Virus record (IMG/VR): IMGVR_UViG_2547132488_000016
From: a virus
Taxonomy: Duplodnaviria; Heunggongvirae; Uroviricota; Caudoviricetes
Strand: one strand, 5' to 3'
DNA length: 6,282 nt
This document shows, piece after piece, positions 731 through 4,867 of the stretch (its first letter is position 1; each line of letters opens with the position of its first letter). Both the position numbers and the translations under genes were made by a program. The notes beneath the pieces are model-generated. The model worked only from the letters and a program-made list of their open reading frames with translations, was not told the DNA's origin and did not search any database.

Positions 731-819
731 ACAAAACAGAGAAGAACACCTGCGGTGGCAGCCGCCCGGATGGATTGGGTTATGAGCCCGTCGTCCGGTG
801 ATGCTCTTCTCTGTTTTGT
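731..819. repeat. Perfect 15-bp inverted repeat (ACAAAACAGAGAAGA / TCTTCTCTGTTTTGT) flanking a 59-bp spacer; hairpin-forming
   Basis: Read directly: 731..745 is the exact reverse complement of 805..819. Both arms end in TTTTGT, so either transcript would carry a stem followed by a short U-tract. Lies in a 437-bp stretch (683..1119) with no convincing ORF. Confidence 0.6.
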
Positions 820-1119
820 AAAAAGGACGGTACCAGCCGGAAGCAAGGGTACAAACTGGTACCGCCAGGACTACACACAGCATAAAGTTGTGGTGCCGGG
901 TGCCTCCCGGTGCCTGGCGAAGGTTGCACACCAGACGGGTGGGTATCCACAGAAGGTCGACTGTCAGCCTCAACCTTAACCCGCGTGCGCTGAGCCGCAT
1001 TCACCACAACGCTAAGGATTCTCTTTGGTTGAAAATACTTAGCTGTTATGTGCCTGTCTTTTCACCACTTCAGGCTCGGTGGTATCCTTTTAAGCCCGTA
1101 TACATAAAAGGAAAATCAA

Positions 1120-1365
1120 ATGACTTTTGATGAAAAAGAACTTGATAATGCAATTAATAAAATCATCGTAACGTCGCTCTTTTCCTGTCTCAGCGACACT
1201 CAGCAGAAACAGTTCTACGAATCGGCTTTCAACATGATCGAGCGTTGTTGTTTCTGCGATGCCGACGAGTTACCTGAAAAAATCAGGAAACAGTTGGCTG
1301 ATGCTCTTCGAGTGCGACTTTCTGACCAATTTTCTGAAATGTGCTCTCCGAATTTGGACAAATAG
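1120..1365 (+). CDS. Hypothetical small protein, 81 aa (AT-rich accessory ORF)
   Basis: ATG at 1120 preceded by AAAGGAAAA (core AAGGA about 7 nt upstream); TAG stop at 1363..1365. Helix-like C-terminal half (PEKIRKQLADALRVRLSDQFSEM), Cys-rich centre (CCFCDAD). Lower GC than flanks. Its 3' end overlaps the convergent minus-strand ORF by 83 nt, so only one of the pair may be real over the overlap. Confidence 0.45.
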   Translation: MTFDEKELDNAINKIIVTSLFSCLSDTQQKQFYESAFNMIERCCFCDADELPEKIRKQLADALRVRLSDQFSEMCSPNLDK

Positions 1366-1579
1366 AAAAAGGCCATTTCCATTCAGGGTCTGATGGAAAT
1401 ACTTCAGCCTGTTCCAAAGCACGGCGTAAAGAGAACACAACTCCAGCCATAATCTGATGTTTCCCATTGGTCCAGCTATCGCCGCTCTGATCTACAGGGG
1501 CGGCTATGTCGTATGACCAAACGACTTCACAGTTATTGTTTAAAATCTGGACTTTCATTTCATACACCTGCTTTAACAT
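1283..1579 (-). CDS. Hypothetical small protein, 91-98 aa; first ORF downstream of the PL-like promoter
   Basis: Minus-strand ORF with stop at 1285..1283. ATG at 1579 has only a weak AGG upstream; the in-frame ATG at 1558 has AGGTG 6 nt upstream (minus strand AAGCAGGTGTATGAA-ATG) and may be the true start. Not Arg-rich, so not an obvious N-type antiterminator. Overlaps the 3' end of the plus-strand ORF 1120..1365. Confidence 0.4.
   Translation of the reverse strand: MLKQVYEMKVQILNNNCEVVWSYDIAAPVDQSGDSWTNGKHQIMAGVVFSLRRALEQAEVFPSDPEWKWPFSICPNSESTFQKIGQKVALEEHQPTVS
1359..1400 (-). terminator. Possible weak intrinsic terminator (minus strand): 8-bp AT-rich stem, 10-nt loop, then GGCC + TTTTTCTATT
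   Basis: ATTTCCAT (1375..1382) is the exact reverse complement of ATGGAAAT (1393..1400). On the minus strand the hairpin is followed by GGCCTTTTTCTATT. The stem is short and AT-rich with a 4-nt gap before the T-run, and it sits inside the minus-strand ORF, hence low confidence. Confidence 0.25.
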
Positions 1580-1683
1580 GAGTGCCTAGTGGCACAACAT
1601 GACTCAACGAATCATCCTGGACTTCATATGCCCCAGGCGGCTACTTCGTGGGCGTCCTGCCTGTTCGTTACTGCAACATCTTT

Positions 1684-1730
1684 AAGTTGTAATCTAGTTG
1701 TTGTTTTGGTTGTTGTCAACAACTTTATGT
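1684..1730 (-). promoter_or_regulatory. PL-like leftward early promoter with overlapping operator repeats (OL-like)
   Basis: Minus strand reads TTGACA (plus 1714..1719) - 17 nt - TAGATT (plus 1691..1696). A perfect 7-1-7 palindrome GTTGTTG-T-CAACAAC (1709..1723) overlaps the -35, and the same AAGTTGT/ACAACTT half-site motif found between cI and cro recurs at 1684..1690 and 1697..1704. Confidence 0.5.
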
Positions 1731-1913
1731 GGTTTTAACGGATGTGAAATGAGGGCTAGGGTTATCAAAAAAGGAGGTTGTATGGACGATGCGCTTTTAA
1801 TTGCACAATGGACACTTTCCTTCCGTGATTGGAAACTCTCAAATCACGGGAGGAAGATTGAAAAGGCGGGTAATAATGGTAACTAAATTTCTGAAGGAAT
1901 GTTTTTTGATGCA

Positions 1914-2600
1914 TTACCAAGTGCGCGATGACCAGAATACTCTACCTATAACGTGAATTCTGGAACGCCTATCTTCGAAGGTGAGTATTTCATCTGGATA
2001 CTCATCTTTATTGAAACTTCTTAGAATCAGACCACCGTCAGGTAAATTGATCAATATCTTAACTCTAAGTAATACGCCATCACGTATAGCATAAAGATCC
2101 CCATCACGAATAGGAACTGTTTGGGAAACATCAACAGCAACAAAATCTCCATTGTTAAGTACAGGTAGTAAACTATTACCCCAAATTTTTACGATCTTTG
2201 CATTGGAGACACATACACCAGCTTTCCTTAAATCAATCCTTCTTAGCGGGAACCAGTCTACAGTTGATTCAACTATTTCAGCCAAACATCCATTACCCGC
2301 TGATAACTCGACATCTAGGACAGGAATGTTTGCAAAAATGTCAGGATCTAATGTTGTACTTTCAGCCTCCTTTACAACAAGGTTTGGGAAAGACGCGTTA
2401 TCCTCAATGCCCAATTGCAACCACTTTTGAGAAACCCCTAACACTTTAGCAATCTCTTTAATTTTCCGAGGCTGTTGAGTTTCTCCATTCTCGATTTTTG
2501 CTACGGATTGTTGTGAAAGCCCAATCTTTTCAGCTAGTTGCGCCTGACTCATTCCTGCTTTTTCTCTTTCGCTTTTTAGTCTTTCTGCCAATGTTTTCAC
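1914..2600 (-). CDS. CI-like prophage repressor (HTH_XRE N-terminal domain + LexA/S24 autopeptidase C-terminal domain), 228 aa
   Basis: GTG start at 2600 with GAGGGGGA 6 nt upstream on the minus strand. N-terminal HTH (MSQAQLAEKIGLSQQSVAKIENGE), candidate Ala-Gly autocleavage site (ELSAGNG), Ser in GNSLLP and Lys in LRVKIL about 40 residues apart (S24 Ser/Lys dyad). Divergent from a Cro-like gene across an operator region. Confidence 0.9.
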   Translation of the reverse strand: MKTLAERLKSEREKAGMSQAQLAEKIGLSQQSVAKIENGETQQPRKIKEIAKVLGVSQKWLQLGIEDNASFPNLVVKEAESTTLDPDIFANIPVLDVELSAGNGCLAEIVESTVDWFPLRRIDLRKAGVCVSNAKIVKIWGNSLLPVLNNGDFVAVDVSQTVPIRDGDLYAIRDGVLLRVKILINLPDGGLILRSFNKDEYPDEILTFEDRRSRIHVIGRVFWSSRTW

Positions 2601-3921: not shown

Positions 3922-4867
3922 ATTAACCGGCTATGTATGGGATGGTTGCGCTGCGTCAGGCATGAAGTTATCCAGCGTGGCAATTATGGCCCGCCTGGCT
4001 GATTTCAGTAATGACGAAGGTGTATGCTGGCCATCAATTGAAACCATTGCCCGCCAGATTGGCGCGGGGATGAGTACCGTCAGAACGGCTATCGCACGGC
4101 TGGAAGCAGAAGGCTGGTTAACGCGTAAGGCGCGTCGCCAGGGTAACCGCAATGCGTCGAATGTTTATCAGCTTAACGTTGCGAAGCTTCAGGCAGCGGC
4201 ATTTTCTCAACTGTCAGATTCTGACCCGTCAAAATCTGACGCATCAAAATCTGACGCATCAAAATCTGACCCGTCAAAATTTGATGCGTCGAAATCTGGC
4301 AAAAAAGCGGGTTTTCACCCGTCAGAATCTGGCGGGGATCCGTCAGTAAAATCAAAACATGATCCGTCAGATAAAAAAACTTCTCGTCCGGACGCTTCGC
4401 AACCGGACACGCAGACGGATGAACAGGATTTTTTAACTCGCCATCCTGATGCGGTTGTATTCAGCCCTAAAAAGCGCCAGTGGGGGACGCAGGATGATTT
4501 GACCTGCGCACAGTGGCTCTGGAAAAAAATCATCGCCTTGTACGAGCAGGCCGCCGAATGTGACGGCGAGGGGGTTCGTCCCAAAGAACCTAACTGGACA
4601 GCCTGGGCAAACGAAATTCGCCTGATGTGTGTGCAGGATGGTCGTACTCACAAACAAATCTGCGAGATGTACAGCCGCGTCAGCCGCGATCCGTTCTGGT
4701 GCCGTAACGTGCTCAGCCCGTCGAAGTTGCGGGAAAAATGGGATGAGCTTTCCCTGCGATTATCGCCGTCCGTCAGCACGTACACCGAAAAACGCGAAGA
4801 CCCGTATTTCAAAGCCAGTTACGACAACGTGGACTACAGCCAGATCCCGGCAGGATTCAGGGGGTGA
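3911..4867 (+). CDS. Phage replication initiator (lambda O-like role): N-terminal winged-HTH DNA-binding domain, repeat-rich acidic linker, C-terminal domain; 318 aa
   Basis: ATG 3911 with GAGG 6 nt upstream; TGA stop 4865..4867. N-terminal HTH-like segment (SSVAIMARLADFSNDEGVCWPSIETIARQIGAGMSTVRTAIARLEAEGWLTRK). The gene contains tandem 15-bp iterons that encode an SKSDASKSDASKSDPSKFDASKS repeat, as in lambda O, where ori lies inside the gene. Position after cro/cII-like genes fits. Confidence 0.8.
   Translation: MSTKLTGYVWDGCAASGMKLSSVAIMARLADFSNDEGVCWPSIETIARQIGAGMSTVRTAIARLEAEGWLTRKARRQGNRNASNVYQLNVAKLQAAAFSQLSDSDPSKSDASKSDASKSDPSKFDASKSGKKAGFHPSESGGDPSVKSKHDPSDKKTSRPDASQPDTQTDEQDFLTRHPDAVVFSPKKRQWGTQDDLTCAQWLWKKIIALYEQAAECDGEGVRPKEPNWTAWANEIRLMCVQDGRTHKQICEMYSRVSRDPFWCRNVLSPSKLREKWDELSLRLSPSVSTYTEKREDPYFKASYDNVDYSQIPAGFRG
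4213..4380. repeat. Probable replication origin: five to six tandem 15-bp iterons (TCAAAATCTGACGCA and variants, 4214..4303), degenerate copies to about 4336, then an A-rich tract (4371..4379)
   Basis: Read directly: 4229..4243 and 4244..4258 are identical; 4259..4273, 4274..4288 and 4289..4303 are 1- to 4-mismatch variants; 4214..4228 is a degenerate copy containing the palindrome GTCAGA-T-TCTGAC. Two GATC sites (4337..4340, 4361..4364) and an A-rich tract follow. The layout mirrors lambda ori (iterons plus an AT-rich region inside O). Confidence 0.7.

What the first reader, a model, noticed from the sequence alone, without database searches (positions are those of the whole stretch)
1120..1579. 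AT-rich accessory block beside the immunity region with two convergent small ORFs overlapping by 83 nt
ORFs 1120..1365 (+, 81 aa, good SD) and 1283..1579 (-, 91-98 aa) face each other and overlap at their 3' ends (1283..1365). Neither resembles a known family by eye. The block is visibly more AT-rich than the flanking phage genes (moron-like), and the minus-strand ORF is the first gene downstream of the PL-like promoter, the position occupied by N/rex/sieB-type functions in lambda. In lambdoid prophages this neighbourhood is a recurrent site for superinfection-exclusion and anti-phage cargo. A convergent overlapping pair could also be regulated by antisense transcription. This is a candidate accessory module, not a demonstrated one.
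Basis: partly seen in the sequence, partly recalled or inferred. Interest (0 to 1): 0.6.

Follow-up and report, generated by a model that had tools for sequence, protein, structure and literature searches.

The report
Co-inherited convergent prophage gene pair
Two small face-to-face genes at the start of a prophage's early operon are both real and always travel together as a swappable cassette across enteric bacteria, but nothing yet shows what they do.

Summary
ORFs 1120-1365 (+, 81 aa) and 1283-1579 (-, 98 aa; true start almost certainly ATG 1558, 91 aa, = phage SfV orf33) exist and overlap by 83 nt. Both are genuine genes: against relatives about 30% diverged in DNA, substitutions pile up at third codon positions of each ORF's own frame. 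All 83 full-length ungapped E. coli-type copies keep both ORFs open. In all 11 diverged lineages examined, down to about 31-35% protein identity, both families occur together, convergent and 3'-overlapping, behind different repressors. About 40 nt (1304-1344) is truly dual-coding; the rest of the minus tail is unconstrained.

The pair is optional cargo. 425 of 5426 complete E. coli genomes carry it, whereas 1928 match the wider 1000-1950 query. SfII, Kati, ST64B, mEp237 and SPN3UB hold other genes or nothing there. A conserved left-end element (1000-1086) with promoter-like hexamers precedes the plus gene. It is repeated when two different pairs sit in tandem.

Function is unknown: no Pfam, NCBIfam, PADLOC, PDB or fold match. 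My model is inferred: a lytic-state product and a lysogen-state product, coupled and mutually silenced by convergent transcription.

Bonus: a covariation-supported, unannotated 65-nt leader RNA (1669-1606) follows PL.

The parts
1000..1086 (.). Left-end element of the cassette. It contains a conserved 40-nt core (1046-1086), an inverted repeat ACCAC/GTGGT (1064-1083) and promoter-like hexamers on the + strand: TTCACC 1061-1066, 16 nt, then TGgTATCCT 1080-1088.
   Evidence: The core lies about 31 nt upstream of the plus-ORF ATG in 9 lineages, whatever lies further upstream. Nearly identical core in L007, whose coding DNA is only about 67-70% identical to the window. The whole of 1000-1086 is duplicated in front of a second, different gene pair in L056. 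Recombination breakpoints occur at 1086. The promoter role is inferred: the match (8 of 12) is below the scan tool's threshold.
1120..1365 (+). Plus gene: an 81-aa acidic (pI 4.6) soluble protein, predicted three-helix bundle, with a conserved RCC(Y/F)C motif. PHROG 3311.
   Evidence: ORF. Codon-phase test. Homologues at 56-64% identity in Klebsiella, Salmonella and Yersinia and at about 31-50% in L101-L106. Model pLDDT 81.7. PHROG match. Properties.
1283..1558 (-). Minus gene (SfV orf33 family, PHROG 3195): 91 aa, acidic (pI 4.95) and soluble. The conserved core is residues 1-85. The upstream ATG at 1579 (98-aa form) is probably not used.
   Evidence: annotated as SfV orf33 and as PGAP WP_021563905. 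(family, including N-terminally extended forms of 170-198 aa). (purifying selection on codons 1 to about 85). (low-confidence model, pLDDT 61).
1304..1344 (.). The stretch constrained in both reading frames (true dual coding). 1283-1303 is an unconstrained minus-ORF tail, and 1345-1365 is the variable plus-ORF end.
   Evidence: Per-bin amino-acid identity in both frames across four lineages. Phase-specific divergence across six lineages. Minus-ORF length varies from 91 to 162 aa.
1606..1669 (-). Structured leader RNA at the 5' end of the PL transcript: closing stem P1, small P2, hairpin P3, and an invariant GCCCACGAAGUAGC stretch. It is context for the cassette, not part of it.
   Evidence: Conserved behind at least 8 different PL/operator sequences. 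Present in 57 phage records, where it is not annotated as an RNA or regulatory feature. Covariation: 93.4% of cells paired against 73.4% when shuffled, and 10 of 14 pairs with compensatory changes. Lies 120-170 nt after the repressor gene in ST64B, SPN3UB, ZF40 and pAEv1818. No Rfam family matches.
1691..1719 (-). PL-like promoter (TTGACA, 17 nt, TAGATT) within operator-like repeats that also occur at OR.
   Evidence: The repeated CAACAACTTTA motif at 1715-1728 and 2700-2712 is read.

Best explanation
Window 1000-1579 is a self-contained, horizontally exchanged two-gene cassette. It sits at the promoter-proximal end of the early-left (PL) operon of an SfV-like lambdoid prophage.

Shown:
- Both genes encode real, small, acidic, soluble proteins of two uncharacterised families.
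- The two families occurred together in every lineage examined, convergent, with their 3' ends overlapping. The ATG-to-ATG span is nearly fixed (436-442 nt where the minus protein has no N-terminal extension).
- The minus gene is the first ORF of the PL transcript.
- The cassette is optional and is replaced by other cargo in sister phages.
- A conserved left-end element precedes the plus gene.

Inferred working model:
- The minus gene is silent in the lysogen, because cI represses PL. It is made immediately on induction or infection.
- The plus gene is transcribed from its own weak promoter in the left-end element, towards PL.
- The two transcription units collide, and their mRNAs are complementary over at least 83 nt. 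Strong PL transcription therefore shuts the plus gene off, and plus transcription dampens leaky minus expression. The plus protein is then the lysogen-state product and the minus protein the lytic-state product.
- The strict co-inheritance implies that the two proteins act on the same process, most likely as an effector and its antagonist. The target would be a host or competing-phage function rather than the phage's own core regulation.
For: Gene reality:
- Third-position excess in each ORF's own frame (14/4/30 and 17/7/37).
- Across six lineages, divergence at codon positions 1/2/3 is 0.22/0.12/0.45 in the plus region and 0.23/0.12/0.41 in the minus region, switching frame at about 1348-1365.
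- Both ORFs are intact in 83 of 83 ungapped copies.

Coupling:
- Both families are present, convergent and overlapping by 83-231 nt in 11 of 11 lineages. These come from Escherichia, Klebsiella, Salmonella, Yersinia and unnamed hosts.
- They sit behind different repressors and next to different neighbours.

PL-proximal position.

Optional cargo:
- 425 genomes carry the module against 1928 that match the wider query 1000-1950, which spans the module and its flanks.
- There is different or no cargo in SfII, Kati, ST64B, mEp237 and SPN3UB, and none of it is homologous to the pair.

Own promoter element: a conserved core at fixed distance from the plus ATG, regardless of upstream context, and duplicated with a second pair in tandem.

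Not a core regulator: closely related phages lack the pair.
Against: - There are no transcript or translation data.
- The promoter match is weak (8 of 12 plus an extended TG) and fell below the scan threshold.
- The spacing between the arms of the inverted repeat varies (7-11 nt). That fits an RNA or DNA hairpin better than a fixed promoter spacer.
- No clear terminator for the plus transcript was found before it would run antisense into PL and cI.
- Synonymous sites of the plus ORF are not slowed in the overlap. Nothing in the sequence therefore demands a conserved RNA duplex.
- Physical linkage alone could explain part of the co-occurrence.
- No domain, defence-system or fold match supports any effector/antagonist role.
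Confidence: 0.4

Rival explanations
1. The two are independent accessory genes that merely lie tail to tail. The overlap is genome compaction plus a drifting stop codon. It has no regulatory meaning, and the proteins are not functionally linked.
For: - The minus ORF's tail after residue 85 is unconstrained, and its stop moves between lineages, giving 91-162 aa.
- Plus-ORF third positions diverge as fast inside the overlap as outside it.
- Tight linkage over 440 nt would by itself keep the two together.
Against: - Co-occurrence holds in 11 of 11 lineages, down to about 31-35% identity, while everything around the pair has been exchanged.
- Recombination breakpoints are common at the cassette edges (1086, 1560) and within the minus ORF at 1488.
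- The only relics that keep one gene without the other are truncated: an SfII-type N-terminal relic of the minus ORF and partial plus-ORF copies.
- Non-homologous cargo at the same site is also arranged as convergent pairs: SfII, Kati and pAEv1818.
Confidence: 0.3
2. The pair is a toxin-antidote or abortive-infection type module. One protein (probably the PL-driven minus protein) is harmful to the cell or to an incoming phage. The other neutralises it.
For: - Two small genes that are strictly co-inherited.
- Mobile and optional.
- The location is one where lambdoid prophages carry exclusion genes (established knowledge for lambda rex/sieB and HK022 nun).
Against: - The genes are convergent, not co-transcribed as in type II systems.
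- No antitoxin-like DNA-binding domain and no toxin domain was found.
- PADLOC, Pfam and NCBIfam gave no significant match, only sub-threshold chance-level hits.
- Neither protein has a membrane segment.
Confidence: 0.12
3. The minus ORF is an ordinary early regulator in the position of lambda N, cIII or Kil. The plus ORF is incidental.
For: The minus ORF is the first ORF after PL. A terminator-like end of an sRNA-like element lies downstream at about 817-870 on the same strand, so some read-through mechanism is needed.
Against: - It has no arginine-rich N-terminus (sequence) and no Pfam hit, including Lambda_Kil.
- The gene is absent from closely related, viable phages such as ST64B, SfII and Kati.
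- A structured leader RNA, present with or without the cassette, is a better candidate for read-through control.
- The plus ORF is clearly under selection.
Confidence: 0.06
4. Only one of the two ORFs is a gene. The other is an antisense shadow.
For: Annotators disagree. SfV and PGAP call only the minus ORF. RAST-type pipelines and most gene calls on relatives give only the plus ORF.
Against: Each ORF has a non-overlapping part of 163-193 nt with its own third-position excess, no stops and the highest amino-acid identity of all six frames. Both are intact in 83 of 83 copies.
Confidence: 0.02

Closest known systems
SfV orf33 (GenBank AAL89435) and PHROG families 3195 and 3311
   Same: The minus ORF is 100% identical to SfV orf33 over 98 aa. 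Both ORFs match these PHROGs end to end.
   Different: Those entries say only 'unknown'. Neither the pairing, nor the reality of the plus gene in SfV, nor the cassette behaviour is recorded in the annotations seen.
Accessory ('moron'-type) and exclusion genes beside the lambdoid immunity region: lambda rexAB and sieB, and HK022 nun, which directly follows putL
   Same: Same neighbourhood. Optional among related phages. The minus gene directly follows a PL leader RNA, as nun follows putL in HK022 (gene order from established knowledge).
   Different: There is no sequence, domain or fold similarity. Both proteins are soluble and acidic, not membrane proteins. There are two convergent genes rather than one gene or a co-directional operon. 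Expression from the repressed prophage is not shown.
Convergent or antisense control in temperate phages: lambda cII/oop RNA, and coliphage 186 pR/pL face-to-face promoters
   Same: The geometry is the same: a strong lytic promoter whose transcript is overlapped at the 3' end of its first gene by an opposing transcription unit.
   Different: Here the opposing unit encodes a conserved protein rather than a small RNA or the repressor. Interference has not been measured.
HK022 put antiterminator RNAs (compared with the leader at 1669-1606, not with the ORFs)
   Same: About 65-70 nt, structured, and immediately downstream of PL. It shares the short motifs CGAAC..GGC and CAGGAUGA with putL and putR.
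   Different: - The BLAST hit sets of the two elements share no phage.
- A covariance model of the leader does not find putL or putR.
- There is only one copy per locus, with no putR-like copy.
- The architecture, a closing stem around two hairpins, differs from the two-stem V shape described for put (PMC9378689).

Membership tests
Lambda N-type antiterminator proteins | Arginine-rich RNA-binding motif at the N-terminus | tested here: not met
   The minus ORF starts MKVQILNNNCEVVWSYD, with no arginine in its first 44 residues. There is no Pfam match.
Lambda N-type antiterminator proteins | Needed by the phage, and so present in all close relatives that share the operon | tested here: not met
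   Absent from ST64B, SfII and Kati, which share the flanks. Present in 425 E. coli genomes, against 1928 that match the wider query spanning the module and its flanks.
Lambda Kil (PF06301) and other named early-left proteins | Match to the family profile | tested here: not met
   Pfam, NCBIfam and PHROGs gave only families of unknown function. In L100 a true Lambda_Kil gene lies elsewhere in the same operon.
Known anti-phage defence or exclusion systems (Rex, SieB, PADLOC catalogue) | Match to a defence-protein model, or the membrane topology typical of Rex/SieB | tested here: not met
   PADLOC gave nothing significant, with a best E-value of 0.035 to SspC over 24 residues. The maximum 19-residue hydropathy is 0.8-0.9, so there is no membrane helix.
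Type II toxin-antitoxin modules | Two small genes co-transcribed in one operon, with an antitoxin carrying a DNA-binding fold | tested here: not met
   The genes are convergent. No HTH, RHH or AbrB domain was found. The plus model is a plain three-helix bundle with no fold match.
Moron / accessory cassette of temperate phages | Present or absent among otherwise collinear phages | tested here: met
Moron / accessory cassette of temperate phages | Own promoter and terminator | tested here: inconclusive
   A conserved element with TTCACC, 16 nt, TGgTATCCT lies 31 nt upstream of the plus ATG, but it is below the scan threshold. No convincing terminator was found.
Moron / accessory cassette of temperate phages | Base composition distinct from neighbouring phage genes | tested here: inconclusive
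   The block is 42.4% GC. That is lower than the left flank and the replication genes, but equal to cI, cro and the PL region.
Moron / accessory cassette of temperate phages | Expressed from the repressed prophage | not testable with these tools
   This needs transcript or protein data from a lysogen.
HK022 put RNA family (for the leader at 1669-1606) | Sequence and structure similarity to putL/putR | tested here: not met
   Covariance model R1 gives no hit on HK022 at E-values up to 10 other than noise elsewhere. The BLAST hit sets do not overlap.
HK022 put RNA family (for the leader at 1669-1606) | Suppresses termination in cis without protein factors | not testable with these tools
   This needs a terminator read-through reporter assay.

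The most novel reading that the evidence does not exclude
The pair is one member of a class of swappable convergent-pair cassettes. Each cassette is headed by the same 87-nt element and they can be stacked in tandem at the start of the PL operon. Each would encode a lysogen-state protein and a lytic-state protein that antagonise each other, wired as a bistable switch by convergent transcription. One possible role is a prophage-borne guard that neutralises the first early protein of incoming relatives, or a defence/counter-defence pair.
Probability: 0.15. Interest if true: 0.75.

Novelty: new variant of a known kind. Interest (0 to 1): 0.5.

Why it matters
Prophage regions next to the immunity genes are a main source of exclusion and host-modifying functions, yet most of their small genes are unannotated or annotated inconsistently.

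Here two pipelines each call a different one of two real genes, so half of the module is missing from almost every genome record. The pair is obligate, mobile and found in about 8% of complete E. coli genomes. That gives a concrete, cheap experimental target: two 250-nt genes and one 87-nt control element.

If the proteins antagonise each other, or the convergent layout acts as a switch, it would add a new design to the known ways temperate phages separate lysogenic from lytic gene products.

The neighbouring leader RNA could separately explain how these N-less phages read through early terminators.

Tried and rejected
Searches that found nothing useful:
- Pfam, NCBIfam, PADLOC and PHROGs on both proteins, on distant family members, on N-terminally extended forms and on the alternative cargo gave only unknown-function PHROGs.
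- PDB sequence search found nothing.
- Foldseek of the plus model against PDB and BFVD gave a best E-value of 1.6-2.
- Foldseek of the minus model (pLDDT 61) against PDB gave nothing usable.
- The afdb50 library was not available.
- Two scans of species-representative genomes found no relative. One attempt failed for lack of a conserved stretch.
- Viral-contig scans with distant members added only one locus.
- The apparent 'distant' hits P0015, P0022, P0009, P0042 and P0044 turned out to be frameshifted or deleted copies, not diverged homologues.
- The SfV genome paper and the 2011 paper on put-like RNAs are not in the held library. The SfI paper says nothing on orf33.

Ideas considered and dropped:
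- I first suspected that the conserved hairpin at 1046-1086 belonged to the STnc100-like sRNA, as its promoter. I dropped this because the element follows the plus gene into loci whose upstream sequence is unrelated, and it is duplicated between two cassettes.
- The put-family reading of the leader was rejected on the covariance-model and BLAST evidence.
- Single-sequence folding of the leader is not significant (z = -0.6). The case for structure rests on covariation only.
- The apparent 41% similarity of SfII to the minus ORF is just a 22-codon N-terminal relic followed by a stop.

Full report
**Context.** The window is the immunity and early region of an SfV-like lambdoid prophage.
- Bases 1000-1669 are 99.6% identical to Shigella phage SfV, where the minus ORF is annotated orf33, 'unknown'.
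- To the right lie a cI-type repressor (1914-2600, minus strand; HTH_3 plus Peptidase_S24), a YdaS/Cro-type gene, a CII(CP76)-type gene and replication genes.
- A PL-like promoter faces left at 1719-1691.
- To the left lie an STnc100/PasD-like sRNA region and yfdP.

One search lists ORF 1120-1365 (+, 81 aa) and ORF 1283-1579 (-, 98 aa), which overlap by 83 nt. The minus gene most likely starts at ATG 1558, giving 91 aa.
- All homologues begin MKVQ.
- A Shine-Dalgarno sequence lies 6 nt upstream in the window, with equivalents in eight lineages.
- Recombination breakpoints fall at 1560.
- PGAP calls this form.

The claim of AT-richness is only partly right. The block is 42.4% GC, lower than the left flank and the replication genes but the same as cI, cro and the PL region.

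**Both ORFs are genes.** Annotators disagree. SfV and PGAP call only the minus ORF. RAST-type pipelines and most gene calls on relatives give only the plus ORF. Comparative data settle it.
- A relative about 30% diverged in DNA (L007) keeps both ORFs open.
- In the non-overlapping parts, differences by codon position are 14/4/30 for plus and 17/7/37 for minus. Synonymous and non-synonymous codon changes are about equal. Every other frame contains stops.
- Across six lineages aligned without a single indel over 439 nt, the divergence pattern follows the plus frame from 1120 to about 1347. It then switches to the minus frame from 1366 to 1558.
- Among 83 full-length ungapped copies of the E. coli type, both ORFs are intact in all.

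**What the overlap really is.** Per-codon identity divides the 83 nt into three parts.
- 1304-1344: both frames are moderately conserved. These are minus residues about 72-85, ending in the family-wide IALE motif, and plus residues about 62-75.
- 1283-1303: the last 7 codons of the minus ORF have only 14% pairwise identity.
- 1345-1365: the variable end of the plus ORF.

In other lineages the minus frame simply runs on through the antisense of the plus gene, giving proteins of 100-162 aa. The Cys/His-looking tail of those long forms lies opposite the conserved RCCYC codons of the plus gene. I take it to be a by-product. True dual coding is therefore about 40 nt, and the rest of the 83 nt is a drifting stop.

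**The two genes are inherited together.** Profile searches enlarged both families.
- The plus family has members at 56-64% identity in Klebsiella, Salmonella and Yersinia.
- The minus family reaches 35-47% identity and includes forms with an N-terminal extension of about 85 aa.
- In every one of the 11 diverged lineages whose DNA I could read, both families are present, convergent and overlapping by 83-231 nt. The ATG-to-ATG span is 436-442 nt wherever there is no N-terminal extension.
- Their surroundings differ: different repressor types, different downstream genes, and sometimes extra genes between PL and the pair.
- The minus gene is usually the first gene after the repressor and PL.

**It is optional, exchangeable cargo.**
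- 425 of 5426 complete E. coli genomes carry at least 80% of the module at 97.7% identity or more. By comparison, 1928 match the wider query 1000-1950, which spans the module and its flanks.
- Between the same flanks, SfII and Kati carry unrelated ORFs and ST64B carries no comparable ORF. mEp237 and SPN3UB carry Kil and/or a small zinc-finger gene.
- A profile search confirms that none of these is related to the pair.
- Breakpoints recur at 1086, 1488, 1560, 1606 and 1670.
- SfII keeps a 22-codon relic of the minus gene, ending in a stop.

**A left-end element belongs to the cassette.**
- A 40-nt core (1046-1086) is nearly identical in L007, although coding DNA there is only about 67-70% identical to the window. 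It is recognisable in eight further lineages.
- It lies about 31 nt upstream of the plus ATG in most of them, whatever lies further upstream.
- It contains an inverted repeat (ACCAC/GTGGT).
- On the plus strand it reads TTCACC, 16 nt, TGgTATCCT. This would start a transcript about 25 nt before the ATG.
- In L056, L058 and L045 an SfV-type pair and an SfII-type pair sit in tandem. In L056, which I examined in detail, each is preceded by its own copy of 1000-1086.
- I read the element as the promoter/operator of the rightward gene, but this is inference. The hexamers are weak. The distance between the repeat arms varies from 7 to 11 nt, which would suit a hairpin better.

**Function.** Nothing known matches.
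- Pfam, NCBIfam, PADLOC and PDB sequence searches gave no significant match. The PHROGs matched have no assigned function.
- The plus protein is predicted as a three-helix bundle (pLDDT 81.7) with no fold neighbour in PDB or BFVD.
- The minus model is poor (pLDDT 61) and matches nothing.
- Both proteins are acidic, soluble and without membrane segments. That argues against a Rex/SieB-type protein.
- The minus protein has no arginine-rich motif and is dispensable in sister phages. That argues against an N-type role.

**Working model (inferred).** PL drives the minus gene only when repression is lifted. The plus gene has its own promoter and points at PL. Convergent transcription and complementary 3' ends make the two products mutually exclusive. 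The obligate pairing suggests that they act on one process, probably antagonistically, on a host or rival-phage target.

The main rival is that they are simply two linked accessory genes with a compaction overlap. The lack of any slowdown at synonymous sites in the overlap fits that rival. Only transcript mapping and genetics can decide between them.

**Leader RNA (outside the finding, same transcript).**
- Between PL and the minus gene lies a 65-nt element (1669-1606, minus strand). It is conserved behind at least eight unrelated operator/promoter sequences.
- It is found in 57 phage records from Escherichia, Salmonella, Klebsiella, Yersinia, Pectobacterium, Aeromonas and a T5-like Providencia phage. 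None of the records listed annotates it as an RNA or regulatory feature.
- In the four temperate phages with an annotated repressor gene that I checked (ST64B, SPN3UB, ZF40, pAEv1818), it lies 120-170 nt after that gene.
- An alignment of 14 sequences supports a closing stem and a hairpin. Ten of 14 pairs show compensatory changes. 93.4% of cells are paired against 73.4% in shuffles and 22-41% when the partners are slid.
- It has no Rfam family.
- It is not detectably related to HK022 putL or putR, despite its put-like position and two shared short motifs.
- The cassette and the leader are independent. Several cassette-bearing loci lack the leader. In a Yersinia prophage the cassette lies upstream of it.

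**Verdict.** This is a real, previously half-annotated two-gene cassette of unknown function. It has an unusual, strictly conserved convergent layout and clear cargo behaviour. It is a new variant of the familiar prophage accessory module rather than a new kind of system. Interest is moderate, and would be higher if the antagonist/switch reading or the cassette-array reading proves true.

Noticed in passing
window 1606-1669, minus strand: A 65-nt structured leader RNA at the 5' end of the PL transcript. It has strong covariation (10 of 14 pairs compensatory) and is present in 57 phage records across several genera. It is not annotated as an RNA or regulatory feature, is not in Rfam and is not related to HK022 put by covariance model or BLAST. 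It is a candidate cis-acting read-through or stability element.
   Followed up: yes
window 817-1032, minus strand: Sub-threshold match to the prophage sRNA family STnc100 (39.5 bits against a gathering score of 47, E = 4e-6), ending in a terminator-like hairpin plus U-run near 817-870. A 2026 preprint links STnc100 to PasD sRNAs. PGAP's 'frameshifted hypothetical protein' here, and Kati's 226-aa extended YfdP, are probably mis-annotations of this RNA region.
   Followed up: partly
window 1812-1928, plus strand: A remnant of the C-terminal 46 residues (63% identity) of a 297-aa BRCT-domain protein. In related E. coli prophages (for example L006, 3474-4364) this gene lies between PL and the repressor gene and converges on it. 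The rest of the gene is deleted in this window.
   Followed up: partly
L056 2881-4368 (also L058, L045): An SfV-type pair and an SfII-type pair sit in tandem. In L056 each is preceded by its own copy of window 1000-1086. A small ClpX-type zinc-finger gene and the leader follow. The layout looks like an array of stackable cassettes.
   Followed up: partly
L006 3068-3271; L110 1731-1889; L111 1939-2100: A small C4 zinc-finger gene (52-73 aa, annotated as ClpX C4-type in L006) recurs as alternative or additional cargo just after the leader in E. coli prophages. Possibly related small zinc-finger genes occur in SPN3UB and mEp237.
   Followed up: no
L094 3847-3926 relative to 4001-4439: In a Yersinia enterocolitica prophage the gene pair lies between PL and the leader RNA rather than after the leader. 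The order of these two modules is therefore not fixed.
   Followed up: no
L114 1645-2229 (Aeromonas phage pAEv1818); L003 2622-2981; L004 2652-3279: Non-homologous cargo at the same PL-proximal site is also arranged as a leftward and a rightward small ORF converging with a short overlap. This hints that the convergent layout is a recurring design. The reality of these ORFs was not tested.
   Followed up: no
window 4200-4305: Direct repeats of about 15 nt (TCAAAATCTGACGCA-like) lie inside the replication-initiator gene. They encode SKSDA-type peptide repeats and caused spurious microRNA hits in Rfam. They are probably origin iterons.
   Followed up: no
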